Origin: a virus
Length of the DNA stretch: 53,646 nt
IMG/VR virus record: IMGVR_UViG_3300028410_000015
Reading direction: 5' to 3' (one strand)
The position numbers were made by a program, and so were the translations under genes. Each line of letters starts with the position of its first letter. The stretch's first letter is position 1. Of this stretch, positions 1,671-22,134 are shown in pieces. Under the pieces are notes generated by a model. That model was not told the origin of the DNA. It ran no database searches and saw nothing but the letters and a program-made list of their open reading frames with translations.

Positions 1671-2555
1671 TTATTTTCGACCAAAGTCATCAGAAAGTCG
1701 AACAACATCGTCAAGTTCTGGTGTGCTTACTTCAAAAAGTTTTACGGTGCCATGCCAGGCACAAAATCTATGAACTGTACCTGACGGGATTCTTTTGCTT
1801 TCGCCGGGCTGAAGGAATACAAAGTCGGTCGACTCTTCAGTTCCTATTTCAAGCTTTAAAGTTCCGCTTAATACATAGATTGTCTCATCTTTGACTTTGT
1901 GATACTGCTTAGACAATCTTAAGTGAGGAAGTATCGTGAGAATCTTTGCAGCATACTTGTCAGTCTTTACCAAGAGTTCTTCGCTGCCCCATGGTTTTTC
2001 TGTCATTCTATCTGCGATGTTTTTGTCAATCTGAACGTCGGAGCGATGTGTTAAATGGAAGTCGTCGGGATCGTTAACTCCCGCGATTAAGTCGCTGCTT
2101 GATTGAATTTTATCATTGCCACCAATGCCAAATCTAATGTCACAACCAATCTTTTTACACAGCGCAAACTCAGGAACTTTGTCGGGCTCACTTCTATCTC
2201 CGCCCTTGGTGAAAATTGCAGGCTTTAGTATTTTAAGACAACCAGTAACTGTTTGAGATCCATCATCCCACCCAACAACGTAATCGACTCCCTCGAGCCC
2301 TGCAATAATCTCCATGCGTTCTTGGTGAAACATGAACGGCTTTCCTTTCTTTCGCTCTAGAAAACCATCGCCGTTTACTATAATAACAACACAAGAGTCT
2401 TCAACTTCTTTGGCAATCTGCACTGTCTCTTTAATGCATCGAAGGTGACCTATGTGAAGCGGATCAAATCCTCCTGAAGTGGTAACAATTCGCTTATTAT
2501 TTTTCTCTGTGATCTTGACTAGATCTTCTGCGCTGTCAAATATTTTAGAACTCAT
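1671..2555 (-). CDS. HxGH-motif nucleotidyltransferase (NMNAT/cytidylyltransferase superfamily) fused to a C-terminal cupin domain
   Basis: N-terminus TTSGGFDPLHIGHLRCIKE, a (H/T)xGH nucleotidyltransferase signature close to NadD FDPIHYGHL. The C-terminal roughly 110 aa look cupin-like (PWGSEELLV...KQYHKVKDETIYVLSGT). ATG at 2553-2555. Confidence 0.65.
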   Translation of the reverse strand: MSSKIFDSAEDLVKITEKNNKRIVTTSGGFDPLHIGHLRCIKETVQIAKEVEDSCVVIIVNGDGFLERKKGKPFMFHQERMEIIAGLEGVDYVVGWDDGSQTVTGCLKILKPAIFTKGGDRSEPDKVPEFALCKKIGCDIRFGIGGNDKIQSSSDLIAGVNDPDDFHLTHRSDVQIDKNIADRMTEKPWGSEELLVKTDKYAAKILTILPHLRLSKQYHKVKDETIYVLSGTLKLEIGTEESTDFVFLQPGESKRIPSGTVHRFCAWHGTVKLFEVSTPELDDVVRLSDDFGRK

Positions 2556-2556
2556 A

Positions 2557-3921
2557 TTAACCCCATAGTTCGAATTTTTCCCTGTATCGAACTAGATGTG
2601 AATCAATCATGTTTCTTTTTAGCTTTTTATACTTTTCGCTATTCTCTTGAATTCCATTTCTTGTAAGATAGCTGTGAATGTGACAAATAAGTTCAGCCTT
2701 AAAATCGTCAACGGTATTTGTGGAGAGTTCGTTCAGTGACGCAGCTAGTATCTCTTCCACACGTGCGTCGACCTCATCAGGATCTTTTGCATGACGATCG
2801 ATATTTTCTTTTGACATGACATCTATGCTTTTTCCATAGATGGCTTTTTGAATGACATGCTGAAGTTCGTGTGCAAACACGCCTCGCGTTTTTCTCATAA
2901 GTTCTGGAAGTTCATTAATAGTTTGTGCCGTATCTTGTGTAAGTTCAAGAGTAAGTTCAATTCCACCAAGATCAACTTCATCAACGTCATCACCATCGAG
3001 ATCACCATAAGGGTCTTCGTCCCAGACATAGTCCGCATCAACGTTGTTAGTCTCTCCAAGTCTAACTGTAGCATCAATATCGTATCGTCCAATTGAATCA
3101 AGTCTTGAAAAGACATTTCCTGTTAATTCTTCATCGAGGGAACCGTGACTCTTTCCATTCTTCCATTCTATCTGAATACTGCTGCCTTCACTCTGGAGGC
3201 AAATCTCGAAATTACTGTGCAACTTATTGTCTTCTTTCTCAATTGCTTCTAGAATGAATCTGGTAAGCGGTTCTGTTAATGTTTGTGCTGCACTTCTAAG
3301 ATCAAACCTCTCATCCGCCTCTGGTAACATTTTAGCCTCGATAAAAAGACGAACATATTGTCTTAGTAATATAGATTCATTGTTTTCTCTTAGATCTGAA
3401 AATACAGATTCTGGGGACGTCCCAATTTGTCTTAGCAGAATTTCCCAATGATCTTGGTGGATAACGTCTGGTTTTCCACCATGTGTTAATGCAAGGGCTT
3501 CGATTGCTTTTTTGTATTTTTCTTTTTGTGATTGACGTGGATTATCAAGCAGATTGTGGAGCATATCGCAGAGTTTTACCTGGAGTGATGTGTCATTGAG
3601 CGATGTTACATAACTTGTGTAATCAGTCCCTTTTACGTGTGACAAAGAGGTCACATATTCCAGAGCTTTTGGTAACCTTCGTTGTATTTGATTTGCTACA
3701 AAAGCCTTGTCTTTAGCGTCTTCAATTGCATCATGTAAGACGGCGACTACTTGAGCAAGCCTAGAATACTTAAATCTCTTTGTAATTGAGTAAACTCTAA
3801 CAGGATGAGTAATGTAAGGACTATTGTCAGATCTTCTCTTCTGGCCTAAGTGAGCTTGCTGAGCAATGTCCAGCGCAATCTCAACCCATCCTTCATTTAG
3901 CTTATGTGTCATGCTTTTCAA
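2557..3921 (-). CDS. RelA/SpoT-type HD-domain phosphohydrolase (putative alarmone or nucleotide hydrolase) with a long C-terminal extension
   Basis: N-terminal YITHPVRV...AVLHDAIEDA matches the RSH hydrolase HD motif. The start is TTG at 3921 or ATG at 3912. Confidence 0.6.
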   Translation of the reverse strand: MKSMTHKLNEGWVEIALDIAQQAHLGQKRRSDNSPYITHPVRVYSITKRFKYSRLAQVVAVLHDAIEDAKDKAFVANQIQRRLPKALEYVTSLSHVKGTDYTSYVTSLNDTSLQVKLCDMLHNLLDNPRQSQKEKYKKAIEALALTHGGKPDVIHQDHWEILLRQIGTSPESVFSDLRENNESILLRQYVRLFIEAKMLPEADERFDLRSAAQTLTEPLTRFILEAIEKEDNKLHSNFEICLQSEGSSIQIEWKNGKSHGSLDEELTGNVFSRLDSIGRYDIDATVRLGETNNVDADYVWDEDPYGDLDGDDVDEVDLGGIELTLELTQDTAQTINELPELMRKTRGVFAHELQHVIQKAIYGKSIDVMSKENIDRHAKDPDEVDARVEEILAASLNELSTNTVDDFKAELICHIHSYLTRNGIQENSEKYKKLKRNMIDSHLVRYREKFELWG

Positions 3922-5007: not shown

Positions 5008-5355
5008 ATTTTACATATTTTTTAGTGCTAAAGGGAAACAACTGCAAACTCTCCTAGATTCATTACTAGGTTCAAGTGCAACACACGTAATCATGTTATC
5101 AAAGTCAGGCTCTCTAAAGATTGCGATTTTGATATTACGTGATTTAGCTTTCTCAATTAGCTCAATTATTTTTTGTTCATTCTTGCAGTTAAGTACTGCA
5201 ATGTAGTTTGAGTTTTCAAACCACTCTTTATCAATGTCTGGGAAGTCATTTGAAAATTGCCTAAGTCCGTGACAAGCTTGAGCAATTTGGCTACCAGGTG
5301 ATAGGTCACTTCTGACAACTACATAAAGTTTGTCGCCTTCGTGTATCTAAGACAT
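5008..5355 (-). CDS. PTH2-family peptidyl-tRNA hydrolase-like protein with an in-frame TAG at codon 3
   Basis: SD AAGGAA lies 6 nt upstream of ATG (cat 5353-5355). The reading is ATG TCT TAG, then a 113-codon open frame: IHEGDKLYVVVRSDLSPGSQIAQACHG...IAVLNCKNEQKIIELIEKAKSRNIKIAIFREPDFDNMITCVALEP, ending at TAA about 5008. That frame resembles Pth2 motifs (VVRxDL..G..AAQCxHA; AG.TQ..GS.TVLAIGP). No other canonical start codon lies between the TAG and the conserved core. It is absent from the ORF track because of the TAG. Confidence 0.45.
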
Positions 5356-5375
5356 TTTAGATTCCTTGTAAAAAT

Positions 5376-5456
5376 GGTGCGGAGTAGCAGGATTTGAACC
5401 AACGCGCTGCGGGGTTAGAAGCCGCTGCTCTGCCAGACTGAGCTAAGGGTACAAAA
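5376..5456 (-). tRNA. tRNA-like gene with anticodon loop UUCUAAC (anticodon CUA, amber-reading) but a non-pairing acceptor stem; a possible pseudogene or an unusually processed tRNA
   Basis: Reverse complement gives a canonical D-arm (TAGCTCAGTCTGGCAGAGC), an anticodon stem GCGG/CCGC with loop TTCTAAC, a T-arm GTTGG-TTCAAAT-CCTGC and 3' ACTCCGC-A-CCA. The 5' strand (GTACCCT) cannot pair with the 3' strand. Confidence 0.35.
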
Positions 5457-5653
5457 ATGGTACCGCGAGGTGTGCTTTCACCACCATCTTCATGATCAAA
5501 AATCATGTGCTCTAATATTTGAGCTATCGCGATATAAATGTTGAGAGTTTTAAATGCGGTCTTCCAGAAGCTTTCGTTGCTTGCAAGAAGAATTTGTCTC
5601 TAAAGTTGGTAACGCATCTAATTTAACCTCTATGAGAGTTTACTGTGCTTCAT

Positions 5654-6490
5654 TTAGTTGTTTATCAAAAAAGGCATTATTTTTCTGTATACGATTGAAA
5701 CTGTTTCTTCTGGGCCAGAGGTTTCAAATGCACGACCGAATTCTACAAATCTATCGTAAATTGCTTTGTCGTTGCCGTTTTCTTGGCACTTGTCACCAAT
5801 GAACCAGACTTTATCATCTTTGAATCTATCAAGTGGGAACGTTTTGTCCCATCCATCTGGATAAATGTCCAGTGATGTTTCGCCGCCAAGTGCAACGGTA
5901 ATTCCCGAGGCCAAACCACCAAAATCAGGTAGCAGTTCGTGCTGTGTTTTGAGTGAGTCTTCAATCATTCTTTTAGCTGCGCTTCTAACACCTTTTTCTT
6001 TGTCGTATTTGACAAATTTTCGTCGAAGATCAGACGGGGCATCCCTTCCAACAGGCGACCAGTTGATTGTACTACCTCTATTTGAAACAAAATGGCCTGA
6101 CACGGGAAGATCAGGAAAAGCTGTCGTCAAAGAATGCTGAAGATAGACGAGCTGTTTGATTAAAAGTTCAAATGCCTTATCACCGAGTTTAGCACGCATA
6201 GAAACACTAGAACTAATACCAAAGTGCCCTTCTTCAAAGAACTCATAGCTCTGTGTTCCATTGCATGGTAGTAAAATAAACTTTTCTGGGTCCAAATCGC
6301 TAATTAAGAGATCTAGGAACTTCTCCATTTGATCCTCGATGTAGTTGTAACCAGAACCTGTTATGATACCTACTTTTCTAATATTCTTATTATGGTTAAG
6401 CAAATACAGCATATAAATTACTTTATCATCGACCTTCTTTCTTGAAGGTGTTAGTGTTCCGTCCATGTCAAACAAGATCACATTGCTCAT
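5654..6490 (-). CDS. phosphomannomutase, eukaryote-type HAD-superfamily PMM
   Basis: True start MSNVILFDMDGTLTPSRKKVD (DxDGT HAD motif I, very like eukaryotic PMM LFDVDGTLTPAR); ATG at 6488-6490. The track ORF is extended upstream over the neighbouring gene. Confidence 0.65.
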   Translation of the reverse strand: MSNVILFDMDGTLTPSRKKVDDKVIYMLYLLNHNKNIRKVGIITGSGYNYIEDQMEKFLDLLISDLDPEKFILLPCNGTQSYEFFEEGHFGISSSVSMRAKLGDKAFELLIKQLVYLQHSLTTAFPDLPVSGHFVSNRGSTINWSPVGRDAPSDLRRKFVKYDKEKGVRSAAKRMIEDSLKTQHELLPDFGGLASGITVALGGETSLDIYPDGWDKTFPLDRFKDDKVWFIGDKCQENGNDKAIYDRFVEFGRAFETSGPEETVSIVYRKIMPFLINN

Positions 6491-6503
6491 CTTTGTCTCC
6501 AGA

Positions 6504-7025
6504 TTACTTTTTTGTAGGAAGTATGCCACGAAGATACTTCTTGAGTGGCATTGAACGTCCCGAATTGTGACATTTAACTGTACCGTCTTGACATCTAATT
6601 GTACGGACTTTGTCAGCACGCATGCCAGTTCCTACTTGTTCGCGGCGCTTTGAATTACGCTGAAAGTGTATCTTATCACTCCTTTGATCATTTAGACGTC
6701 TCTCAAGTTCAGCAAATGCGTCTTTTTTATTCTGCGCTTGAGATTTGCTGTCACATCTAACTGTTGTTCGTGTAGGAACATGGGTCAACACGACACATGT
6801 GTCTGTCTTATTCTTATGTTGACCACCGGGACCTGAGCCTCGTGTCATCTTCCATACAAGCTCATCGTCGTGTATTTCAATTTTCGTGTGTACTTTTTCA
6901 CGTAGTACAGCAACAGTGATTGTTGACGTATGAACTCGCCCCTTCTTATCATTTGGAGGAATCCTTTGCCACCGATGGCCCCCAGATTCGTTCTGGAAGG
7001 TATCTAGAACGTTTTTACCAGTCAT
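6504..7025 (-). CDS. class-I release-factor GGQ-domain protein (ArfB/PrfH-like peptidyl-tRNA hydrolase)
   Basis: RGSGPGGQHKNKTDTCVVLTHVPT matches the GGQ catalytic motif of RF/ArfB/PrfH. ATG at 7023-7025. Confidence 0.75.
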   Translation of the reverse strand: MTGKNVLDTFQNESGGHRWQRIPPNDKKGRVHTSTITVAVLREKVHTKIEIHDDELVWKMTRGSGPGGQHKNKTDTCVVLTHVPTRTTVRCDSKSQAQNKKDAFAELERRLNDQRSDKIHFQRNSKRREQVGTGMRADKVRTIRCQDGTVKCHNSGRSMPLKKYLRGILPTKK

Positions 7026-7169
7026 TTTGAGGGATAGGTAACCAGAACCGTTAGAAACTATCTGGCAGCTAAAATGACCTCCGAAGTGCTACCTTCTTGT
7101 ATATTTCAAACTGCTTGTTCACTAGATCTTTGGCGTCATCGCCGCCTTCGCCTGCTCTTATCTCTATTA

Positions 7170-7421
7170 TTACTGTTGACATTGTTTTCTACCAGGTGCA
7201 GTACAACCTACACTTTTTACACCTGCATACGAGACCCAAAGCTGATGTTCTGTGGGGCCTCTTTTGCGCTCTGACTCGGAAAATGCATCAAATGCACAAG
7301 TATCGTCAGACTCTTCTATGGGCATCTTTAAAAGTTTATACAACTTCATAGAAGTTGGCAGAGGATCAGGTGACAAAACTCCGCCGAGCACTGTTTTAGT
7401 AAGTTCATTTACCTTACTCAT
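7170..7421 (-). CDS. hypothetical protein
   Basis: ORF track 83 aa with ATG at 7419-7421. It lies between a terminator hairpin and the GGQ gene. The SD is weak. Confidence 0.3.
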   Translation of the reverse strand: MSKVNELTKTVLGGVLSPDPLPTSMKLYKLLKMPIEESDDTCAFDAFSESERKRGPTEHQLWVSYAGVKSVGCTAPGRKQCQQ

Positions 7422-7759: not shown

Positions 7760-8395
7760 TCACCTCGAAAGGTCGACAACGATAGCAGTACAGTTGTCAC
7801 TCGAGCCGTTTCGAAGCGCTTTGTCGCAAAGTGCTTTTGCAGGATCTTCACCACATTCAATTGCGTTAGTAATCTCTGTGTCCATCTCTTTAAGATTCAT
7901 AAAGTCGTGGACACCGTCAGATGAGATGACAAAGCACCCTGGATATATAGGAAGCTCAAAGTTGTCCACCACGGATAGAAATCCAACAGCATTTTTTAGC
8001 ATGCTTCCTATGCCATGATCTACTGTCAAGAAACCAGCAGAACCCTGAGGATCTGACGGGAAATGGCTTATCCTTGTATCACCTGCGTGTGCAACTGAGA
8101 TTGTGTTTTTGTCAGTGTCGAATAGACAAACTGTTGCAGTTGCTCCTCTATGATCTTTTTCTGCTAGGCATTCTATATTAGCTGCCCATAAAGCACCAAC
8201 AATTTCGTCAAGGTTTTTTGCAGCTAATCCAACGTGAAAAACTACTTTCTCGGCAGCTTTATCACCATTTGGGTGACCGCCCATTCCATCAGAGACTGCA
8301 CAAATTGTTCTAGTTTTTTCTTCCAACGGTTTGACGAGAAATCGATCTTCTTGATATCCTCTCTTGCCTTGCTGGGAATTTGTATAGACCTTCAT
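7760..8395 (-). CDS. PP2C-family Ser/Thr protein phosphatase
   Basis: CAVSDGMGGHPNGDKAAE and downstream acidic motifs are typical of PPM/PP2C. ATG at 8393-8395. Confidence 0.75.
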   Translation of the reverse strand: MKVYTNSQQGKRGYQEDRFLVKPLEEKTRTICAVSDGMGGHPNGDKAAEKVVFHVGLAAKNLDEIVGALWAANIECLAEKDHRGATATVCLFDTDKNTISVAHAGDTRISHFPSDPQGSAGFLTVDHGIGSMLKNAVGFLSVVDNFELPIYPGCFVISSDGVHDFMNLKEMDTEITNAIECGEDPAKALCDKALRNGSSDNCTAIVVDLSR

Positions 8396-8448: not shown

Positions 8449-8524
8449 TGGAAGACCCCTAGGGATTCGAACCCTAACCTACCTGATTCAAAGTCAAGTG
8501 CTCTGCCGATTAAGCTAGAGGTCC
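8449..8524 (-). tRNA. tRNA-Gln (anticodon TTG)
   Basis: Plus strand starts with TGG (encoded CCA), and the T-loop reverse complement is GGATTCGAACCC. The acceptor pairs with wobbles. Anticodon loop CTTTGAA. Confidence 0.65.
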
Positions 8525-8529
8525 ATTTG

Positions 8530-16407: not shown

Positions 16408-16535
16408 ATGTATCCTCTCTATTGACAGAAGAATTTTCCTTTCCAATTATTGGAAAGGTTTTACCTCTTGAAGGTAGTAATACTTTACTGCTTGATATTA
16501 AACTTTACAAATTTTGTTTACATCTAAAAGCAGTA

Positions 16536-17450
16536 CTAATTTCTGGATCCTATCAATGCTTTTGCCACAGAAAAATAACTTTCTCTGTTCCAGGAAACAC
16601 GAACGTAGGCATCAATCATGCTATCCATAGTATCAACGACAGGAAACTTTATATTGAGTTGCTGAATCATATCTGAAGCTGCTGATTTTTGCCTCTCAGA
16701 GGCTGCGTAAAGCAATTTCATAGGATCGATGCCTAATATATGAAGAGAAGAACGCAAATCCCTCAGTCCGTCGATTTCATACTTTACCATCTTACATTGC
16801 CAAGCAATTAGTCTTCCGACTTGGAATCTGTTCATGCCGTTGATTAAGAACGGAAGAAACCTCACACCTAGTGTAATGTGTCGTGCTTCATCAGCAATGT
16901 AGTAACTCAGAAGGTCAGTTAAGATCGGCTCAATATTAAGCTCGATTAGCTTCTGAAAGATTGTTATTGCGACGGGTTCGACCATCAATTGCATTCCCAA
17001 TAGTTTTCTTGCAGTTGTCTTTGCATTGATTACTTCGTTTAAGCCTCTTTCTGCGCTGTTAGACAACAAAAGGCCTGCTGGTGGTTCATGTTCAAGGACG
17101 AGCTTTAAATAGTCTAACATGACATAGAAGTGGCGTGCCTCGTCGTGGGCCTGTGATGTTGCTGCGAGTTTAGCACCGAGGTCTTCTAACTCTTCTGCGA
17201 GTGCCGCAGATGTCTTCCATGCTGCAAGCTCACCCCAAAGAATCAAAGACAACACTCGAATAAGTGCTGCCTTCTTTATTGGATCAATTGTAGGGATGCC
17301 GTGCTTTTTGATTAGATCATCGAGAACTTCTTTGCCGTTCCATATTTTCGCTTGCCCACGATGGTAAACATTATGAAGAGCTTTCTCGGCGTGCTCTGCA
17401 CCCTTTCCTTCTAAATCAAAGTGTACAATTTCAAATTCAAGGCCTTTCAT
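16536..17450 (-). CDS. ferritin-like diiron-carboxylate protein (two ExxH motifs; AurF, MiaE or R2-like superfamily)
   Basis: HDEARHFYVMLDYL and ADEARHITLG. True start MKGLEFEIV at ATG 17448-17450 with SD AAGGGG. The track extension runs into a tRNA. Confidence 0.55.
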   Translation of the reverse strand: MKGLEFEIVHFDLEGKGAEHAEKALHNVYHRGQAKIWNGKEVLDDLIKKHGIPTIDPIKKAALIRVLSLILWGELAAWKTSAALAEELEDLGAKLAATSQAHDEARHFYVMLDYLKLVLEHEPPAGLLLSNSAERGLNEVINAKTTARKLLGMQLMVEPVAITIFQKLIELNIEPILTDLLSYYIADEARHITLGVRFLPFLINGMNRFQVGRLIAWQCKMVKYEIDGLRDLRSSLHILGIDPMKLLYAASERQKSAASDMIQQLNIKFPVVDTMDSMIDAYVRVSWNRESYFSVAKALIGSRN

Positions 17451-17492
17451 AGTTATCCCCTTTGCAAGTATAACTATCTCGCTAGTAATGTA

Positions 17493-17570
17493 TGGTAGCC
17501 GATGTGAGAATTGAACTCGACCGCAGCTTCTGTGTAAAAGAAGTATCACCACCAGGTGAACTATCGGCTA
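17493..17570 (-). tRNA. tRNA-Val (TAC)
   Basis: Acceptor AGCCGAT/ATCGGCT, anticodon stem CTTCT/AGAAG with loop TTTACAC. Confidence 0.5.
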
Positions 17571-17575
17571 AAAAA

Positions 17576-17650
17576 TGGTAGGCAGAACAGGATTCGAACC
17601 TGCAACCGTCTGGGTGTAAACCAGAAGCTCTCCCATTGAGCTATCCGCCT
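17576..17650 (-). tRNA. tRNA-Val (TAC), second copy
   Basis: Acceptor AGGCGGA/TCTGCCT, D-arm GCTCAATGGGAGAGC, anticodon stem TCTGG/CCAGA with loop TTTACAC, T-arm GCAGG-TTCGAAT-CCTGT. Confidence 0.6.
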
Positions 17651-17689
17651 ATAATGTGTAACGCTATTTATGAATTCTCATAAGTTAAA

Positions 17690-17762
17690 TGGAGGTGCCA
17701 GAGAGATTCGAACTCTCACAAAGGGTTTTGCAGGCCCGATTCCACAGCCCGTGACTAGCACC
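17690..17762 (-). tRNA. tRNA-Cys? (GCA)
   Basis: Acceptor GGTGCTA/TGGCACC, 3-bp D-stem, anticodon loop CTGCAAA on a weak stem, T-arm GAGAG-TTCGAAT-CTCTC. Confidence 0.45.
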
Positions 17763-17767
17763 AAATA

Positions 17768-18124
17768 TTACTGAATTGTGATGTCCGTTTCGAAGCTCCA
17801 TTCACCAGCTTCAAAAGTACCATGGACAGTAACCCATTCCCACTCATTGAAAGTTTGATCTGCAAACACTTCGGGATCTTTCTGTGTAAGTTCTCTAGTT
17901 AGTCGAGCAGCGTCTTGTGCTGGGATCTGCATGGCATTTAAGACTTCGTCAAAGCTTACGTTACTAGTAGTTCCCGACTCGCTCGTAAGTGTTCCAGTCA
18001 TGCTATCAAAAGATTGTGTCGGGTCTCCGCCGCCTTCCCAGCGAAAACTTTTCGTAGAGAGTGCTGATGTGAGCTCTTCTTTGATGATCTGCTTAATTCG
18101 AGCTTTTGTAAGTGATACTTTCAT
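17768..18124 (-). CDS. hypothetical protein carrying the IIKEEL leader (MKVSLTKARIKQIIKEELTSALS)
   Basis: ORF track 118 aa, ATG at 18122-18124. Confidence 0.55.
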   Translation of the reverse strand: MKVSLTKARIKQIIKEELTSALSTKSFRWEGGGDPTQSFDSMTGTLTSESGTTSNVSFDEVLNAMQIPAQDAARLTRELTQKDPEVFADQTFNEWEWVTVHGTFEAGEWSFETDITIQ

Positions 18125-18339
18125 GGTAATCTATCCAATTTCTGTCTATATCTATCTTCGATGTAAGATAATGTTCTGACTTTAAGAGGATTCACAAAGA
18201 AACCGTAATTGTCCGTTCACTTTCAGGCCTCTTTAAAAAAGCCTGTACTGTGGGGATCTTATTGAACAGCTATTACGCGCCGAACTTCAGGCCTGTTACA
18301 CAGCTCTTTTTGTTACTTGATCTTGCTTCTTTGTGAAAA

Positions 18340-18416
18340 TGGTACCCAGCCAGAGATTCGAACTCTGATCCATGTTCTTTTGAAAAACACCGCTCTGCCA
18401 ATTGGCGCAGCTGGGC
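18340..18416 (-). tRNA. tRNA with anticodon CAA (Leu-reading) but a short variable arm
   Basis: Acceptor GCCCAGC/GCTGGGT, anticodon stem TGTTT/GAACA with loop TTCAAAA, T-arm CAGAG-TTCGAAT-CTCTG. Confidence 0.45.
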
Positions 18417-18426
18417 ATGTATTAAA

Positions 18427-18510
18427 TGGTGCCTCGAGAGAGATTCGAACTCTCACACCTTTCGGCACTGGTTCCTAAGACCAGCGTGTCTACCATTCCA
18501 CCATCGAGGC
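18427..18510 (-). tRNA. tRNA-Leu (TAG), type II
   Basis: Acceptor GCCTCGA/TCGAGGC, anticodon stem CTGGT/ACCAG with loop CTTAGGA, long variable arm, T-arm GAGAG-TTCGAAT-CTCTC. Confidence 0.65.
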
Positions 18511-18513
18511 ATA

Positions 18514-19068
18514 TTAGTTTTTGTACACTTTGATTTTATCGATTTTGACTTCATCAAAAACAAAGACTTCTTTTTCATCTTTGATTGATGACTCAAGCGT
18601 TTCTTTCCATCTTTCAACATAGTGAGATGTTATCTCTTCAATGTCAAGTAATTTTGACCAATCTATGATTGCATTATCAGGGTCGTAGATTCCCACTACG
18701 ACGACACCAAATCGGTCTTCAATCAAGTCAGGGTCTGCGCCCCAACCTTGTTTTGTCGCAAAACGCTTTGCAACTTCTTCGCTTGTAGACCAAGACTTAT
18801 CAACAGTTTTATCTGTTGTCTCTTGAGTCTGTAGCTTTACGACGTCTGACTTTGTAAGGTTTCTTATTCCCCTAAAGATCTTTTTTCCTTTGGGTGGTTT
18901 TACAAAGTCGTAAACGTCTTCACTTTTTTTGAGATTCTTCATTTGAGGAATGCTCATTTTTTTAATGTCTGAGAGATGATCAGTGATTTGCTTATAGATA
19001 CGTGTTATCTCTTTATCACCAGATGATTCTAAAACGTATCTTACGTATTCTATTAAGATTCTTTTCAT
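18514..19068 (-). CDS. hypothetical protein
   Basis: ORF track 184 aa, ATG at 19066-19068. Confidence 0.5.
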   Translation of the reverse strand: MKRILIEYVRYVLESSGDKEITRIYKQITDHLSDIKKMSIPQMKNLKKSEDVYDFVKPPKGKKIFRGIRNLTKSDVVKLQTQETTDKTVDKSWSTSEEVAKRFATKQGWGADPDLIEDRFGVVVVGIYDPDNAIIDWSKLLDIEEITSHYVERWKETLESSIKDEKEVFVFDEVKIDKIKVYKN

Positions 19069-19111
19069 TTACTTCGTAGCCCTTTTCTATATAGGACTCT
19101 GTAATCTTAAA

Positions 19112-19198
19112 TGGAGGAAGATGCGAGAATCGAACTCGCGCACGTTTACCGTGACCATTCCTTAGCAGGGAAGTACATTACCGCTCTGTCAATCTTCC
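19112..19198 (-). tRNA. tRNA-Ser (GCT), type II
   Basis: Acceptor GGAAGAT/ATCTTCC, D-arm ACAGAGCGGTAATGT, anticodon stem CTTCC/GGAAT with loop CTGCTAA, long variable arm. Confidence 0.65.
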
Positions 19199-19206
19199 TT
19201 TTAAAG

Positions 19207-19282
19207 TGGTGTCCCAGGACAGACTCGAACTGCCATCGCGAGGATCTTCAATCCTCCGTTCTACCGTTGGAACTACTGGGAC
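19207..19282 (-). tRNA. tRNA-Phe (GAA)
   Basis: Acceptor GTCCCAG/CTGGGAC, anticodon stem GAGGA/TCCTC with loop TTGAAGA, T-arm GGCAG-TTCGAGT-CTGTC. Confidence 0.65.
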
Positions 19283-19299
19283 GTAGTATTGTTGTTAAG

Positions 19300-19378
19300 T
19301 GGTGGAGAGTATGGGTATCGAACCCACCTCACGAAGATTGCAAATCTTCATCGCCTTGCCTTGGTACATGACTCCCCA
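19300..19378 (-). tRNA. tRNA-Ala (TGC) with a G3:U70 identity pair
   Basis: Acceptor GGGGAGT/ACTCTCC (G3-U70), anticodon stem GAAGA/TCTTC with loop TTTGCAA, T-arm GTGGG-TTCGATA-CCCAT. Confidence 0.65.
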
Positions 19379-19431
19379 ATGATTTAAAGAATTTTACTGT
19401 TATTCCTTTATTTGTTCAAACTTTGTTAAAA

Positions 19432-19519
19432 TGGTGCCGAGAGCGGGACTTGAACCCGCACGCCCTTCACGGAGCACAGCGGTCTAAGCGCTGCATGTCT
19501 ACATTCCATCATCCCGGCA
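19432..19519 (-). tRNA. tRNA-Leu (TAG), type II, second copy
   Basis: Acceptor GCCGGGA/TCTCGGC, anticodon stem CAGCG/CGCTG with loop CTTAGAC, long variable arm, T-arm GCGGG-TTCAAGT-CCCGC. Confidence 0.6.
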
Positions 19520-19522
19520 AAA

Positions 19523-19598
19523 TGGTGGTTACTATCGGAATTGAACCGATCCCTCTAGTTTTTCAGACTAGCGCTCTGCACCTTGCGAGCTCAGTAAC
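19523..19598 (-). tRNA. tRNA-Phe (GAA), second copy
   Basis: Acceptor GGTTACT/AGTAACC, anticodon stem CTAGT/ACTAG with loop CTGAAAA, T-arm ATCGG-TTCAATT-CCGAT. Confidence 0.55.
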
Positions 19599-19603
19599 CA
19601 AAA

Positions 19604-19690
19604 TGGCGGAAGCGGAGAGATTCGAACTCTCAAAGGTTTGACCCTCTACTTGTTTTCAAGACAAGCTCCTCAAGCCGGTCGGATCGCTTC
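19604..19690 (-). tRNA. tRNA-Ser (TGA), type II
   Basis: Acceptor GGAAGCG/CGCTTCC, anticodon stem CTTGT/ACAAG with loop CTTGAAA, long variable arm. Confidence 0.65.
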
Positions 19691-19696
19691 CAAAAA

Positions 19697-19783
19697 TGGT
19701 GGGTCGTCTAAGAATTGAACTTAGTCGGCACTGCAGGCTGGGGTTTTACAGACCCCCTCGGGAACCATCCCTCCGTACGACCC
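19697..19783 (-). tRNA. tRNA-Tyr (GTA), type II
   Basis: Acceptor GGGTCGT/ACGACCC, anticodon stem GGGGT/ACCCC with loop CTGTAAA, long variable arm, T-arm CTAAG-TTCAATT-CTTAG. Confidence 0.65.
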
Positions 19784-19796
19784 AAACTATATAAAA

Positions 19797-19882
19797 TGGT
19801 GCCCATGACAGGACTTGAACCTGTACTCCTTTGCAAGAACTGTGCACTCAACGCAGCGTGTCTACATTCCACCACACGGGCA
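19797..19882 (-). tRNA. tRNA-Leu? (GAG), type II
   Basis: Acceptor GCCCGTG/CATGGGC, anticodon loop TTGAGTG on a stem with one mismatch, long variable arm. Confidence 0.45.
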
Positions 19883-19887
19883 TAAAA

Positions 19888-19975
19888 TGGAGGAAGGTGC
19901 GAGAATCGAACTCGCGCTGGTATCAACCAGGCTCCGACTTTCCAAGCCGGCACATTACCACTCTGTCAACCTTCC
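19888..19975 (-). tRNA. tRNA-Ser (GGA), type II
   Basis: Acceptor GGAAGGT/ACCTTCC, anticodon stem CCGGC/GTCGG with loop TTGGAAA, long variable arm. Confidence 0.65.
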
Positions 19976-20622: not shown

Positions 20623-21474
20623 TTATTTTTCTCTTAGGTTCTTGATTTGCTCTAACAATTTAGCTTCTTCGACAGCAGTTTCTTGATTTGTGTCAACGCT
20701 GTTGTCAATTTTTACTTGAACGATGTGATTTCCAATCCTTCCGTCTGGGTGCTTTACGCCCATAGACTTTACAATCATATTTGTTGATTTAGAAAGATTT
20801 TTGGGAATCTTCATACTAATTGGGCCTTGAATTGTTTCGATTCTTTCTTTTGTGCCGAGAGCAGCGTCAAAGTATCTGATTGTTAGGTTGCTATAAATGT
20901 CTAGGTCGTCTCTCGTAAACTCTGGATGGGAGGTTGCTCTAACTGTGATAAAGAGACGACCTCGACTTCCATCTCTACCAGGGCCGCCCTTGTTATCCAT
21001 GTAGTAGAGTTTTTTGTCTTTCGTGGCAGGTGGCACTTTGATTTCAAGGTGTTCTTTCTCTTTGCTCATGCCGAAGCCCGAACATTTAGCGCAAACTTCT
21101 ACAGTATGACCGAGGCCTTTACAATTTTCACATTGTTTCCAGACAGGATACTCGACACTTTTTTTAACGCCTTGAATAGCCTCCATGAACGAAACAATAA
21201 GAGTAACATTTACGTCAAATCCTCTTGAGGGTGCAAAAGGTGAATGCGTAGTCACATTTGCTGATTGATAGAGTTTAAAATCGTACGCTTTTCGCTTATC
21301 TTTGTTGTTTAAGGTTTCATATGCCACTTGAATCTTAACAAAGGTAGATTGTGCCTCTTCTGAGTTGTTGTGATCTGGATGGAACTTTTTTGCTAATCTT
21401 CTGTAAGCTTTTTTAATGTCGCCTTGACTACAATCTTTTGATAGATTTAGTGTGTCGTAATGTGTCGATGTCAT
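20623..21474 (-). CDS. DnaJ-like co-chaperone (J domain plus CxxCxG zinc finger)
   Basis: N-terminal YDTLNLSKDCSQGDIKKAYRRLAKKFHPDHN with HPD, plus CENCKGLG...CAKCSGFG repeats. Confidence 0.8.
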   Translation of the reverse strand: MTSTHYDTLNLSKDCSQGDIKKAYRRLAKKFHPDHNNSEEAQSTFVKIQVAYETLNNKDKRKAYDFKLYQSANVTTHSPFAPSRGFDVNVTLIVSFMEAIQGVKKSVEYPVWKQCENCKGLGHTVEVCAKCSGFGMSKEKEHLEIKVPPATKDKKLYYMDNKGGPGRDGSRGRLFITVRATSHPEFTRDDLDIYSNLTIRYFDAALGTKERIETIQGPISMKIPKNLSKSTNMIVKSMGVKHPDGRIGNHIVQVKIDNSVDTNQETAVEEAKLLEQIKNLREK

Positions 21475-21837: not shown

Positions 21838-22134
21838 TTACATCAGTTCAATGATAATTCTCCAAATATAGTCTGGGTCCACATCTTTCTTGTCGAGTTT
21901 AAGTGCTAGAGTACATTGCTCATTGACATCACTAGAATTAAATGTGCTCCAGTCGTATTGACTAGCTCCGTCGGGTAAACTCTTTCGAGTTCTAGCATTT
22001 CTAAGTGCATCGTCAAATTTTTCAAACGAACTTGAAGAAAGATTGCTTTTTTCACCGCTTGTACGAGACTCTTGCCAACTACTAACCTTATAGTTAAATT
22101 CAGTTTTCATTCTCATTTTTTCACCCCTTGACAC
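21838..22134 (-). CDS. hypothetical protein
   Basis: ORF track 98 aa. Its start overlaps the rtcB stop region. Confidence 0.4.
   Translation of the reverse strand: MSRGEKMRMKTEFNYKVSSWQESRTSGEKSNLSSSSFEKFDDALRNARTRKSLPDGASQYDWSTFNSSDVNEQCTLALKLDKKDVDPDYIWRIIIELM

What the first reader, a model, noticed from the sequence alone, without database searches (positions are those of the whole stretch)
5008..5456. PTH2-like peptidyl-tRNA hydrolase gene with an in-frame UAG at codon 3, immediately beside a tRNA-like gene whose anticodon loop reads CUA
The only ATG with a well-placed SD (AAGGAA plus 6 nt) is followed by TCT and then TAG. The next 113 codons in the same frame encode a convincing Pth2-like protein (VVVRSDL..G..IAQACHG ... 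ITCVALEP). No canonical start codon lies between the TAG and the conserved core. About 20 nt upstream lies a tRNA-like gene with a canonical D-arm, a T-arm and a 7-nt anticodon loop UUCUAAC (U33, CUA, A37). That would read UAG. However, its 5' acceptor strand (GTACCCT) cannot pair with its 3' strand (ACTCCGC), so as encoded it should not fold into a mature tRNA. Possible explanations are: (i) an amber-suppressor tRNA that needs unusual processing, for example RtcB- or Rnl2-mediated ligation (both ligases are encoded here); (ii) a decaying suppressor/target pair; (iii) regulated read-through or non-AUG initiation of a translation-rescue factor.
Basis: partly seen in the sequence, partly recalled or inferred. 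Interest (0 to 1): 0.7.

Follow-up and report, generated by a model that had tools for sequence, protein, structure and literature searches.

The report
Stop-codon-gated phage PTH2 with broken suppressor tRNA
A phage gene for a peptidyl-tRNA-hydrolase-like protein can only be translated by reading through a stop codon at codon 3, using a suppressor tRNA encoded next to it. This pairing recurs in about 80% of more than 100 related phage genes and I found no description of it, but in this strain an 84-base deletion has destroyed the tRNA.

Summary
On the minus strand the gene reads SD (5367-5362), ATG (5355-5353), TCT, TAG (5349-5347), then 111 sense codons with a confident Pth2 fold. No ATG, GTG or TTG lies between the TAG and the first beta-strand.

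The "unfoldable" tRNA(CUA) 19 nt upstream is a deletion chimera. A 99.5%-identical IMG/VR contig has two complete tRNA genes there, tRNA(CUA) followed by a second tRNA whose 5' strand is GCGGAGT. The window lacks the 84 nt between their shared 11-nt T-loop repeat.

The in-frame stop is a conserved design, not decay:
- Of 111 distinct homologues, 87 begin ATG, 0-8 sense codons, then a stop. None has a stop inside the aligned domain.
- In all 63 gated loci where any suppressor tRNA was found, its anticodon matches the gate: TAG/CUA 59, TGA/UCA 3, TAA/UUA 1.
- 62 of those 63 tRNAs are on the same strand, at a median distance of 441 nt.
- Neighbouring genes use the standard code.
- An HD-like partner gene, sometimes fused to PTH2, carries the same kind of gate.
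- The cultured Stenotrophomonas phage RAS14 has one tRNA-Sup(CUA) and one convincing gated gene.

Most likely PTH2 synthesis is licensed by suppressor-tRNA read-through. In this strain the key is broken. I found no published description.

The parts
5362..5367 (-). Shine-Dalgarno-like AAGGAA, 6 nt upstream of the ATG of the gated PTH2 gene
   Evidence: Read directly from the sequence. Homologues carry GGAG, GAGG or AGGA at the same spacing before the leader ATG, not before the codon after the stop.
5350..5355 (-). Leader: ATG (5355-5353) plus one sense codon, TCT (5352-5350)
   Evidence: Across the 87 gated homologues there are 0-8 sense codons between the ATG and the stop, most often one (47 of 87).
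5347..5349 (-). In-frame TAG 'gate' at codon 3, followed by a purine (ATA)
   Evidence: The gate is conserved in 87 of 111 distinct homologues. The stop type matches the suppressor anticodon in the same locus in 63 of 63 cases. The base after the stop is A or G in 85 of 87.
5011..5346 (-). PTH2-fold coding body (111 codons) plus the TAA stop at 5013-5011
   Evidence: Pfam PF01981, E = 2.3e-12. PDB profile hit to M. jannaschii Pth2 2zv3, E = 1.2e-10. Model pLDDT 96.8; Foldseek top 14 hits are all Pth2 or Bit1 family structures, with TM 0.61-0.79. There are 0 nucleotide differences from the sister strain L001.
5375..5452 (-). Chimeric, non-functional tRNA remnant. The 5' part (5452 to about 5401) is positions 1 to about 52 of tRNA(CUA), with the anticodon at 5418-5416. 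The 3' part (about 5389-5375) is the T-stem 3' strand, acceptor 3' strand and CCA of the next tRNA. The junction lies within the 11-nt repeat GGTTCAAATCC at 5400-5390.
   Evidence: Rfam gives only a partial match, model positions 8-63, 29.4 bits. ARAGORN makes no call. There is no cloverleaf in the MFE fold. Alignment to L001 shows an 84-nt gap bounded by the repeat. In L001 the two genes score 56.7 and 38.7 bits over the full model.
5458..5533 (-). Upstream full-length but atypical tRNA: anticodon UUU, T-loop UGAAAGC, encoded CCA at 5460-5458. It is the first gene of the three-tRNA cluster that precedes PTH2 in the sister strain.
   Evidence: Rfam tRNA 44.8 bits over positions 1-71. ARAGORN calls it only in its metazoan-mitochondrial mode. 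L001 has CAA in place of CCA.

Best explanation
The locus is a phage 'suppressor-gated PTH2' cassette caught in a damaged state.

Design of the family (comparative evidence):
- A small Pth2-fold gene is preceded by a Shine-Dalgarno site, an ATG and 0-8 sense codons, then a stop codon in frame with the enzyme.
- No usable start codon follows the stop.
- A suppressor tRNA gene whose anticodon reads exactly that stop lies on the same strand, usually within a few hundred nucleotides.
- Ribosomes starting at the ATG therefore release a one- to nine-residue peptide (or lose it as peptidyl-tRNA), unless the charged phage suppressor tRNA wins the A site and reads through.
- PTH2 output is thus licensed by, and roughly proportional to, stop-codon suppression in the infected cell.

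State in this window (shown):
- An 84-nt deletion between the 11-nt GGTTCAAATCC T-loop repeats of two adjacent tRNA genes fused the 5' three-quarters of tRNA(CUA) to the 3' end of the next tRNA.
- This destroyed the acceptor and T stems.
- The gate and the enzyme gene are intact, but the key is broken.

Inferred for this strain: PTH2 is probably not made beyond background read-through, unless a suppressor is supplied from the unseen part of the genome or from the host.

Purpose (inference only): PTH2, and where present its HD-like partner, is dosed to match the load of dropped-off or stalled peptidyl-tRNA that suppression itself creates. Alternatively it is simply held back until the phage tRNA set is working.
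For: Deletion chimera:
- L001 (IMGVR_UViG_3300035698_022074) is 99.4-99.6% identical to the window. At this site it carries a complete tRNA(CUA) (ARAGORN call; Rfam 56.7 bits) followed by a second tRNA beginning GCGGAGT (38.7 bits).
- The window lacks exactly one repeat copy plus the 73 nt between the repeats.
- The chimera does not fold as a cloverleaf, whereas the L001 gene does.
- The two genes share only 11-nt repeats, so collapse in a k=141 assembly is unlikely. That step is inference.

Gate:
- In-frame TAG with no downstream canonical start. The domain starts 6 residues after the TAG.
- Homologues of 54-58% identity carry ATG GCG TAG ATT, ATG TCG TAG ATT, ATG ACG TAG ATG, ATG GAA AAG ACA TAG GGA and ATG TGT CAG TAG AAC.
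- Survey of 141 loci with 111 distinct proteins: 87 clean gates (80 TAG, 4 TGA, 3 TAA), 50 distinct leader strings, and 0 stops inside the roughly 105-codon aligned body.
- 88 of the 254 tRNAs in these loci are suppressors. In 63 of 63 gated loci with any suppressor it is the cognate one: TAG/CUA 59, TGA/UCA 3, TAA/UUA 1. 62 of 63 are on the same strand, at a median distance of 441 nt.
- The base after the stop is a purine in 85 of 87. From my own knowledge of classical E. coli amber-suppression studies, that is the context that favours suppression.

Not genome-wide recoding:
- Treating TAG as sense raises local coding density by a median of 0.05. That is about the size of the PTH2 gene itself, and no more than for TAA (0.07) or TGA (0.04).
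- The window uses TAG as an ordinary terminator.
- In the complete 319.6-kb genome of cultured phage RAS14 there is one tRNA-Sup(CUA). Only one of four TAG hits in the census is a real gene, the HD-like-PTH2 fusion. ORFs split by TAG are not in excess, and structural genes are intact.

Second client:
- 32 of 40 HD-like partner genes carry the same ATG-leader-TAG gate.
- Some partner genes are fused to PTH2 behind a single gate.
Against: - No expression data exist. Read-through, charging of the suppressor and the identity of the inserted amino acid are all inferred.
- In 55 of 87 gates the codon after the stop is ATT, ATA or ATC, and in one further locus (L005, counted as gate-plus-start) it is ATG. 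Re-initiation at a near-cognate start therefore cannot be excluded for those genes.
- In cluster C mycobacteriophages (Catera, Myrna) the motif is ATG or GTG, then TAG, then GTG. The SD there is spaced for the GTG after the stop, so those genes probably initiate independently.
- 28 gated loci showed no suppressor within the 1-6 kb available, and in RAS14 the suppressor lies about 100 kb from the gene.
- The phage family lacks the GKGK lysine motif of archaeal Pth2 and scores below the NCBIfam equivalog cut-off. Peptidyl-tRNA hydrolase activity is therefore not assured.
- Only 53.6 kb of a roughly 110-kb genome is visible, so a second suppressor or recoded late genes elsewhere cannot be excluded.
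- I could not check the deletion against raw reads.
Confidence: 0.78

Rival explanations
1. The ATG-NNN-TAG is a separate two-codon leader mini-ORF. PTH2 is made by termination and re-initiation, or by direct initiation, at the AUA/AUU/AUG immediately after the stop. The suppressor tRNA is irrelevant.
For: - The codon after the stop is ATT in 50, ATA in 3 and ATC in 2 of 87 gates, and ATG in L005.
- Cluster C mycobacteriophages have GTG after the TAG, with the SD spaced for that GTG.
- From my own knowledge: two-codon minigenes with a strong SD are classic triggers of peptidyl-tRNA drop-off (the lambda bar and pth system). A mini-ORF in front of a Pth gene is therefore conceptually attractive.
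Against: - About 30 gates are followed by GTT, GTA, GTC, AAC, AAT, AAA, GGA, GGC, GAA, TAC or AGT, which are not start codons.
- The SD is spaced for the leader ATG in the window and its close relatives.
- The stop type switches to TGA or TAA exactly where the neighbouring suppressor is UCA or UUA. Re-initiation does not predict that.
- An Ile at this position is also found in P0005, where it lies downstream of an in-frame ATG. It may therefore be a conserved residue rather than a start.
Confidence: 0.1
2. The phage uses a reassigned code genome-wide (TAG as sense, as in Lak or crAss-like phages). The PTH2 TAG is just one of many recoded codons and has no special role.
For: - Suppressor tRNAs in phages are best known from TAG- or TGA-recoded lineages.
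- Many homologous loci come from 300-700 kb phages.
- One homologue (LR756501, L148) has a second, internal TAG aligned with Glu or Asp in its relatives.
- Late genes of this window's phage are not in view.
Against: - The gate is always in the first 1-9 codons and never in the roughly 105-codon aligned body of 111 homologues.
- Treating TAG as sense gives no extra coding density compared with the TAA or TGA controls.
- The window terminates 11 of 74 long ORFs at TAG and uses UAG as the stop in a frameshift site.
- The complete genome of RAS14 is standard-code, with its structural genes intact.
Confidence: 0.07
3. The locus is simply decaying or mis-sequenced. The TAG would be a nonsense mutation or a sequencing error, and the odd tRNA an assembly artefact.
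For: - The tRNA gene in the window really is non-functional as written.
- I could not inspect raw reads.
- Metagenome assemblies do contain errors.
Against: - The TAG is identical in two independent assemblies, an ENA MEGAHIT contig and a JGI IMG/VR contig.
- An equivalent stop occurs in 87 divergent homologues.
- The ORF has no other defect.
- The deletion is bounded by an 11-nt direct repeat, too short to collapse a k=141 de Bruijn graph. That looks like replication slippage. This last point is inference.
Confidence: 0.05
4. One reading: the tRNA(CUA) is encoded in pieces and is completed by RNA ligation (RtcB or Rnl2), or by other unusual processing.
For: RtcB (22121-23362), an RNA ligase (38933-39961) and a CCA-adding enzyme with an RNA-repair HAD domain (26811-28622) are encoded in the window.
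Against: - The one-piece gene exists in a 99.5%-identical genome, and the difference is a clean 84-nt deletion between direct repeats.
- Neither the missing 3' end of tRNA(CUA) nor the missing 5' half GCGGAGT... occurs anywhere else in the window, even allowing 2-3 mismatches.
Confidence: 0.02

Closest known systems
Suppressor-tRNA 'code-change' systems of stop-codon-recoded phages (Borges et al., bioRxiv 10.1101/2021.08.26.457843; Lak and crAss-like phages)
   Same: A phage-encoded suppressor tRNA allows translation of phage genes that contain in-frame stops. Those authors propose that this makes expression of such genes conditional on the tRNA.
   Different: - There, dozens to hundreds of stops are scattered through late, structural and lysis genes, and the genome has effectively changed code.
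- Here the surrounding genes use the standard code.
- There is a single stop, placed in the first 1-9 codons of one or two specific genes (PTH2 and the HD-like partner).
- The tRNA is usually adjacent to its client.
- That paper contains no occurrence of the words 'hydrolase' or 'peptidyl'.
prfB (RF2) autoregulation by an early in-frame UGA
   Same: An early in-frame stop codon acts as a sensor of how that stop is being decoded and so sets the output of a translation factor.
   Different: - In prfB the escape route is a +1 frameshift and the sensed quantity is RF2.
- Here the escape route is in-frame read-through by a dedicated tRNA.
- The Atkins et al. 2016 review (PMC5009743) says that read-through versions of this idea, and UAG/RF1 counterparts, were unknown in bacteria.
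Phage lambda bar minigenes and host pth (rap). This comparison rests on my own knowledge and was not tested here.
   Same: A strong SD followed by AUG, one sense codon and a stop is the classic architecture that provokes peptidyl-tRNA drop-off, and its effect depends on peptidyl-tRNA hydrolase.
   Different: - The bar minigenes are free-standing and harm Pth-deficient hosts.
- Here the same architecture is fused in frame to a hydrolase gene, and its stop covaries with a suppressor tRNA.
Archaeal/eukaryotic Pth2 (PF01981; PDB 2zv3, 3erj, 1xty, human Bit1 1q7s) and the PTH2 genes of jumbo phages noted by Iyer et al. 2021 (PMC7824862)
   Same: Same fold and sequence family. [quoted passage not shown]
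   Different: - The phage clade lacks the GKGK lysine motif, has REPD where archaeal enzymes have RDAG, and falls below the NCBIfam equivalog cut-offs.
- The gate, the linkage to suppressor tRNAs and the HD-like partner are not mentioned there.
Engineered amber-codon gene switches (an orthogonal tRNA/synthetase pair with an early TAG in the target gene). This comparison rests on my own knowledge.
   Same: An N-terminal amber codon makes protein output depend on the presence of a cognate suppressor tRNA.
   Different: This would be a natural, evolutionarily conserved version that uses a phage tRNA presumably charged by a host synthetase.

Membership tests
Pth2 peptidyl-tRNA hydrolase (Pfam PF01981) | Sequence match above the curated Pfam threshold | tested here: met
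   47.6 bits against a cut-off of 23, E = 2.3e-12, covering profile positions 2-103 of 115. A profile of the family hits M. jannaschii Pth2 2zv3 at E = 1.2e-10.
Pth2 peptidyl-tRNA hydrolase (Pfam PF01981) | Pth2 alpha/beta fold | tested here: met
   AlphaFold2 model with pLDDT 96.8 and pTM 0.89. The Foldseek top 14 hits are all Pth2 or Bit1 family structures, with TM 0.61-0.79.
Pth2 peptidyl-tRNA hydrolase (Pfam PF01981) | Equivalog-level similarity to archaeal Pth2 (NCBIfam TIGR00283 / NF003314) | tested here: not met
   30.9 bits against a cut-off of 82, and 30.2 against 126. This is a divergent phage clade (phrog_1866).
Pth2 peptidyl-tRNA hydrolase (Pfam PF01981) | Conservation of active-site residues and hydrolase activity on peptidyl-tRNA | tested here: inconclusive
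   The alignment to 2zv3 shows the GKGK loop replaced by P-G-S/A/Y-Q, with a two-residue deletion, and RDAG replaced by REPD. R12, D14, Q20, Q23, H26, E79, P80 and T87 are invariant within the phage clade. Which residues are catalytic I know only from memory. Activity cannot be tested here.
Functional amber-suppressor tRNA | Complete cloverleaf with a paired 7-bp acceptor stem and T stem | tested here: not met
   Window copy: Rfam gives a local match to positions 8-63 only, ARAGORN is negative, and the MFE fold is not a cloverleaf. The sister-strain gene (L001 5811-5887) does meet this feature, at 56.7 bits over positions 1-71.
Functional amber-suppressor tRNA | Anticodon CUA in a 7-nt loop with U33 and a purine at position 37 | tested here: met
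   The loop is UUCUAAC, with the anticodon at 5418-5416. Positions 31 and 39 are C and C, a mismatch also seen in other suppressors of these loci.
Genome-wide stop-codon-recoded phage (TAG as sense, 'code 15') | Many genes interrupted by in-frame TAG, and a marked gain in coding density when TAG is read as sense | tested here: not met
   In the window the gain for TAG is no larger than for TAA or TGA. No conserved internal TAG was found. TAG is used as a terminator. In 65 related stretches of 5.5 kb or more (64 loci plus the window) the median gain for TAG is 0.05, about the size of PTH2 itself. RAS14 is standard-code. The late genes of this particular phage were not visible.
Suppressor-gated PTH2 cassette (the grouping proposed here) | SD, ATG, 0-8 sense codons and an in-frame stop, with no canonical start before the conserved DKLYVV core | tested here: met
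   Window. The same holds in 87 of 111 distinct homologues.
Suppressor-gated PTH2 cassette (the grouping proposed here) | A cognate suppressor tRNA gene close by on the same strand | tested here: inconclusive
   In the window only a deletion remnant of the cognate tRNA(CUA) is present, 19 nt upstream. The intact gene is present in the 99.5%-identical L001. Across the family the match is 63 of 63 and the strand agrees in 62 of 63.

The most novel reading that the evidence does not exclude
Many large phages that otherwise use the standard code carry a self-contained translational switch. It is a suppressor tRNA whose main, and in at least one complete genome apparently only, client is a tRNA-3'-end-cleaning module (PTH2, with or without an HD-like partner) that is gated by the cognate stop codon in its first few codons.

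The leader is built like a drop-off-prone minigene, so the switch would measure the balance between release factor and suppressor at that stop and dose the hydrolase to match.

In this phage lineage it sits beside an RF1-like gene that uses a prfB-style +1 frameshift at UAG instead of UGA. Together the two would form a homeostatic circuit for UAG decoding.

Such a dedicated tRNA-client pair would explain why standard-code phages keep suppressor tRNAs. It could also be the seed from which full stop-codon reassignment evolves.
Probability: 0.45. Interest if true: 0.9.

Novelty: new variant of a known kind. Interest (0 to 1): 0.8.

Why it matters
- **A concrete client for phage suppressor tRNAs.** Their role is understood in recoded phages but not in standard-code ones. 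Here a specific, conserved client gene is identified.
- **A natural amber switch.** The design resembles the amber-codon switches built in synthetic biology. It links stop-codon suppression directly to peptidyl-tRNA recycling.
- **A correction to annotation.** Gene callers either miss these genes altogether (the window and L065) or truncate them. Examples are P0007, P0008 and RAS14 WAX21615.1, and probably dozens of IMG/VR entries.
- **Tractable test systems.** Stenotrophomonas phage RAS14 has one tRNA-Sup(CUA) and one gated HD-like-PTH2 fusion gene. Cluster C mycobacteriophages also pair PTH2 with tRNA(CUA).
- **A natural control.** The deletion variant in this window is a knockout of the tRNA with the gate left intact, next to a 99.5%-identical strain with the tRNA intact.
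- **A related lead.** The neighbouring RF1-like gene with a UAG-dependent +1 frameshift site would be the RF1 mirror image of prfB autoregulation. I found no description of that either.

Tried and rejected
- **Relaxed tRNA detection.** ARAGORN relaxed, intron and low-threshold modes on 5201-5700 gave only a forced, mis-paired "tRNA-Pyl" at 60% threshold. This was no help.
- **Nucleotide search of cultured and deposited phages.** Megablast and blastn found no match, so the lineage is not in INPHARED.
- **Recoding test by ORF statistics.** Removing any one stop inflates ORFs equally, so there is no TAG signal.
- **All-against-all BLAST of TAG-bridged ORFs between loci.** On the first four loci it showed no conserved internal TAG. 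On all loci it was swamped by off-frame and antisense alignments. I used it only for the HD-like family and for the single internal TAG in L148.
- **Amino-acid identity of the suppressor.** The best similarity to the phage's own tRNAs is 71%, to tRNA-Thr(UGU), which is uninformative. The inserted amino acid remains unknown.
- **Back-up stops after TAG-terminated genes in the window.** No pattern.
- **Other suppressors in the window.** A whole-window Rfam scan added only a GUG-anticodon tRNA at 10165-10237.
- **Missing tRNA halves elsewhere in the window.** None found.
- **Function of the HD-like partner.** No Pfam or NCBIfam family and no significant PDB sequence hit. Only phrog_14850, of unknown function, matched.
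- **Literature.** Seven full-text searches and six papers queried by term search found no description of a PTH2-suppressor pairing or of an N-terminal stop gate. The library excludes most subscription journals.
- **Considered and dropped.** Translational bypassing in the style of T4 gene 60. There are no matched take-off and landing codons, and the leaders vary freely.
Full report
**1. What is in the window**

All genes here are on the minus strand. Read 5' to 3', the region holds the following:
- a tRNA at 5533-5458;
- a tRNA-like element at 5452-5375;
- AAGGAA at 5367-5362;
- ATG 5355-5353, TCT, TAG 5349-5347, ATA;
- 110 further sense codons, ending at TAA 5013-5011.

Translation gives MS*IHEGDKLYVVVRSDLSPGSQIAQACHG...ITCVALEP...LKNM*.

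The evidence that this is a Pth2-fold gene with no downstream start:
- The mechanical ORF list has no ORF of 30 aa or more in this frame, because the first in-frame ATG/GTG/TTG after the TAG is 84 codons downstream.
- Pfam PTH2 matches at E = 2.3e-12, and profile position 2 falls on residue 6 after the TAG.
- A family profile hits archaeal Pth2 structures (2zv3, E = 1.2e-10).
- An AlphaFold2 model (pLDDT 96.8) has its first beta-strand at residues 6-12. Its Foldseek top 14 hits are all Pth2 or Bit1 family structures, with TM 0.61-0.79.

There is no room for a canonical start downstream of the TAG.

**2. The tRNA-like element is a deletion chimera**

ARAGORN finds 36 tRNAs at 8449-19975 but nothing here, in any mode. 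Rfam finds two hits:
- a full tRNA at 5461-5533 (44.8 bits, anticodon UUU, odd T-loop);
- a partial tRNA at 5387-5445 (29.4 bits, model positions 8-63 only, loop UUCUAAC).

The PTH2 protein located a 110-kb IMG/VR contig (L001, IMGVR_UViG_3300035698_022074). It is 99.4-99.6% identical to the window over 11 kb. In L001, ARAGORN calls a complete tRNA(CUA) at 5811-5887. Aligning the two sequences shows that the window lacks 84 nt.

L001 reads, in order:
- tRNA(CUA): GTACCCT...GTTGG TTCAAAT CCAAC AGGGTAT A CCA;
- a 4-nt spacer, TCTT;
- a second tRNA: GCGGAGT TA GCTC...AGAGG TTCAAAT CCTgCT ACTCCGC A CCA.

Rfam scores these two genes at 56.7 and 38.7 bits over the full model.

The window has lost one copy of the shared 11-mer GGTTCAAATCC plus the 73 nt between the two copies. 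That joins the 5' three-quarters of tRNA(CUA) to the 3' end of its neighbour. This explains why GTACCCT faces ACTCCGC.

Further points on the chimera:
- It does not fold into a cloverleaf, whereas the L001 gene does.
- The window is 100% identical to an independent record, ENA ERZ27315555 contig k141_234856.
- The two tRNA genes share only 11-nt repeats, so I judge a real slippage deletion more likely than an assembly collapse. I could not check reads.
- Neither missing half occurs elsewhere in the window, and no other suppressor tRNA is detectable in it.

**3. The in-frame stop is conserved**

The first relatives examined, at 47-58% protein identity, carry these leaders:

| Locus | Leader and following codon |
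|---|---|
| L002 | ATG GCG TAG ATT |
| L003 | ATG TCG TAG ATT |
| L005 | ATG ACG TAG ATG |
| L006 | ATG GAA AAG ACA TAG GGA |
| L007 | ATG TGT CAG TAG AAC |

Each locus long enough to show it also carries a well-formed tRNA(CUA).

I then collected 55 IMG/VR loci and 80 metagenome loci using a family alignment, and ran one pipeline over all of them: tblastn, an in-frame walk upstream, and ARAGORN. The results for 111 distinct proteins:
- 87 have a clean gate: ATG, 0-8 sense codons, a stop, and no ATG/GTG/TTG before the conserved core. Of these, 80 are TAG, 4 TGA and 3 TAA.
- 4 more have a gate together with a nearby start codon.
- The remaining 20 appear to have ordinary starts. At least two of these (L052 and L059, plus L063) actually have the gate further upstream.
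- There are 50 different leader strings, and not one stop inside the roughly 105-codon aligned body.
- The base after the stop is A in 62, G in 23, T in 1 and C in 1. From my own knowledge of classical E. coli suppression studies, a purine there favours suppression.

**4. The gate covaries with a linked suppressor tRNA**

- Of 254 tRNAs that ARAGORN finds in these 111 loci, 88 are suppressors. In 37 loci the suppressors are the only tRNAs present.
- In every one of the 63 gated loci that contain any suppressor, the cognate one is present: 59 TAG with CUA, 3 TGA with UCA (L028, L109, L142) and 1 TAA with UUA (L085 = L016).
- 62 of the 63 are on the same strand as PTH2. 47 lie downstream and 16 upstream. 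The median distance is 441 nt, and 19 are within 150 nt.

This covariation is the main argument that the stop is decoded by the tRNA rather than bypassed by re-initiation.

**5. This is not genome-wide recoding**

- In the window, treating TAG as sense gains no more ORF coverage than treating TAA or TGA as sense.
- TAG terminates 11 of 74 long ORFs in the window.
- PTH2 is the only convincing N-terminal gate in the 53.6 kb.
- Across 65 related stretches of 5.5 kb or more (64 loci plus the window), the median gain in coding density is 0.05 for TAG. That is the size of the PTH2 gene itself. The gains are 0.07 for TAA and 0.04 for TGA.

The cultured Stenotrophomonas phage RAS14 (OP752703.1, 319,635 bp) gave a whole-genome test:
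- It has one annotated tRNA-Sup-CTA, which ARAGORN confirms.
- Its structural genes, up to 3,138 aa, are intact in the standard code.
- ORF pairs split by a single TAG are not in excess: 14, against 40 for TAA and 23 for TGA.
- A census for SD, ATG, up to 8 codons, a stop and a long ORF returns four TAG hits. Only one of them is a real gene.
- That gene is an HD-like-PTH2 fusion preceded by AAAGGA-N7-ATG AAG TAG ACC. Its GenBank CDS (WAX21615.1) starts at a GTG 22 codons downstream and so cuts off the conserved QTILQHGLSVW motif.

Published huge-phage genomes also carry the gate: LR756501 (735 kb), LR756500 and LR745206. The first two have tRNA(CUA) nearby.

**6. A second gated client**

In one subclade the gene immediately upstream of PTH2 carries the same kind of gate. 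It contains an HD-like motif (HDxGKP...HFPxH), has no Pfam family, and belongs to phrog_14850.
- 32 of 40 loci have an ATG leader followed by TAG. Examples are M-S-Y-L-TAG-NRLISDM and M-S-TAG-LNDLIRDM.
- In L059, L063 and RAS14 it is fused upstream of PTH2 behind a single TAG.
- In L027, L028 and L142 it is fused downstream of PTH2 behind a single TGA.

The window has no homologue of this partner.

**7. Mechanism**

Shown:
- the architecture of the gate;
- its conservation;
- the matching and linked tRNA;
- the standard-code context;
- the broken tRNA in this strain.

Inferred:
- Ribosomes initiating at the leader ATG make full-length PTH2 only when the charged suppressor out-competes release factor at the gate.
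- Otherwise a one- to nine-residue product is released, or dropped as peptidyl-tRNA.
- Output would then track suppression efficiency.

Purpose (speculative). Suppression of natural stops should create read-through, stalled ribosomes and peptidyl-tRNA, so gating would dose the hydrolase to that load. Alternatively the gate simply delays expression until the phage tRNA set is functional. Iyer et al. proposed a ribosome-rescue role for jumbo-phage PTH2.

Caveats:
- The phage clade lacks the GKGK loop of archaeal Pth2 and falls below the NCBIfam equivalog cut-offs, so its substrate is unproven.
- In this window's strain the cassette is probably silent. The PTH2 ORF is still nucleotide-identical to that of the intact strain, so the deletion is recent or tolerated.

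**8. Rivals**

- **Re-initiation at AUU, AUA or AUG after a two-codon mini-ORF.** This remains possible for individual genes, since ATT follows the stop in 50 of 87. It is likely in cluster C mycobacteriophages, where the motif is ATG or GTG, then TAG, then GTG, with the SD spaced for the GTG. It explains neither the roughly 30 gates followed by non-start codons nor the covariation between stop and anticodon.
- **Genome-wide recoding, sequencing error or decay, and ligation of a split tRNA.** These are each contradicted by the evidence in sections 2, 3 and 5.

**9. What is known**

- PTH2 in jumbo phages is known (PMC7824862).
- Suppressor tRNAs and release factors in recoded phages are known (10.1101/2021.08.26.457843; PMC13037316).
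- I found no paper that links PTH2 to suppressor tRNAs, or that describes an N-terminal cognate-stop gate.
- The Atkins et al. review says that early in-frame read-through designs for release factors, and their UAG/RF1 counterparts, were unknown.
- The paper library is limited to open-access papers and preprints, so absence there is not proof of novelty.

**10. Verdict**

- The finding is a new variant of suppressor-dependent gene expression in phages.
- It is widespread, it corrects existing annotation, and it can be tested in cultured phages.

Noticed in passing
window 6504-7182 (-), site at 7082-7068; also L152 and L153, about 330-200 nt before position 2501: The release-factor gene is split between two frames at GGAGG-UCA-UUU-UAG-C. 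This is a prfB-style +1 frameshift site (an SD-like element, a 3-nt spacer, a slippery codon, a stop, then C), but with UAG in place of UGA. Homologues of 43-44% identity carry AAGGAG-CAU-CUU-UAG-C. The frameshift-fused product gives one continuous PCRF plus RF-1 match and scores as RF1 rather than RF2 (185 against 121 bits). The tripeptide is PPT in the relatives and PPN here, and domain 1 is missing. The 2016 recoding review lists no RF1 or UAG counterpart.
   Followed up: partly
L002 3162-3773; L014 2391-3002; L005 2598; about 40 loci in all; RAS14 record 88311-89170 (-): An HD-like protein family (phrog_14850, no Pfam family) sits next to PTH2. It carries its own N-terminal TAG gate in 32 of 40 loci and is fused to PTH2 in several phages. 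Its function is unknown.
   Followed up: partly
L001 5892-5973 (the gene partly deleted in the window; its 3' end is at window 5389-5375): The second tRNA of the pair has a 10-nt anticodon loop (GUAUUUAUAU) and a bulged G in the T stem, yet a perfect acceptor stem. ARAGORN does not call it; Rfam gives 38.7 bits. Its decoding role, if it has one, is unclear.
   Followed up: no
window 5458-5533 (-): A third tRNA with anticodon UUU has a non-canonical T-loop (UGAAAGC) and is missed by ARAGORN's default mode. The window encodes CCA at its end where the sister strain has CAA. This may be a variant Lys-type tRNA in a genome rich in RNA-repair genes.
   Followed up: no
window 10165-10237 (-): Rfam finds another tRNA (43.4 bits, loop UUGUGUC, anticodon GUG) that ARAGORN does not list. 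With the UUU tRNA at 5458-5533 this gives at least 38 intact tRNA genes in the window, not counting the chimeric remnant.
   Followed up: partly
L001 5811-5887; L002 4509-4582 and 5245-5318; Catera L147 3105-3178; Myrna L146 2966-3037: The suppressor tRNAs of these loci repeatedly have a mismatch at positions 31 and 39 (C with C, or C with A). This gives an effective 4-bp anticodon stem. A 2026 NAR paper in the search results discusses 4-bp anticodon stems and stop-codon reading.
   Followed up: no
L146 (Mycobacterium phage Myrna, NC_011273) 2470-3040; L147 (Catera, NC_008207) 2470-3180: Cluster C mycobacteriophages (more than 200 cultured genomes) have ATG or GTG, then TAG, then GTG immediately before PTH2. 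ARAGORN reads a tRNA 130-250 nt downstream as anticodon CUA, but GenBank annotates it as tRNA-Ser or tRNA-Arg. This may be a vestigial gate.
   Followed up: partly
L148 (LR756501.1, 735-kb phage) within 2965-3366: This PTH2 has, besides the N-terminal gate, a second internal TAG that aligns with Glu or Asp in 45 of 49 relatives. That phage may therefore use TAG as a sense codon more widely.
   Followed up: no
L004 2196-2270; L042; L099; L108: PTH2 genes with ordinary starts often sit next to an ochre-type tRNA(UUA). The PTH2-suppressor linkage therefore persists even where there is no gate.
   Followed up: no
window 13768-16446 (-): An 892-aa ORF matches the Major Vault Protein shoulder and repeat domains (E = 1.4e-26), which is unusual for a phage.
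   Followed up: no
window 22121-23362, 26811-28622, 38933-39961 (-): An RNA-repair island: RtcB, a CCA-adding/poly(A)-polymerase-family enzyme fused to a 'Swiss Army Knife' HAD domain, and an RNA ligase. DnaJ (20623-21474), a PP2C phosphatase (7760-8395) and a eukaryotic-type phosphomannomutase (5654-6619) lie nearby.
   Followed up: no
window 7170-7421 (-): An 83-aa ORF with no Pfam match ends in three consecutive stops that overlap the start of the RF1-like gene. It occupies the place where RF domain 1 would be encoded.
   Followed up: no
RAS14 whole genome (L157, L156, L158-L162): TAG terminates only 9 of 217 ORFs of 150 codons or more (TAA 155, TGA 53). This may reflect avoidance of the stop read by the phage's own suppressor, or merely base composition.
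   Followed up: no
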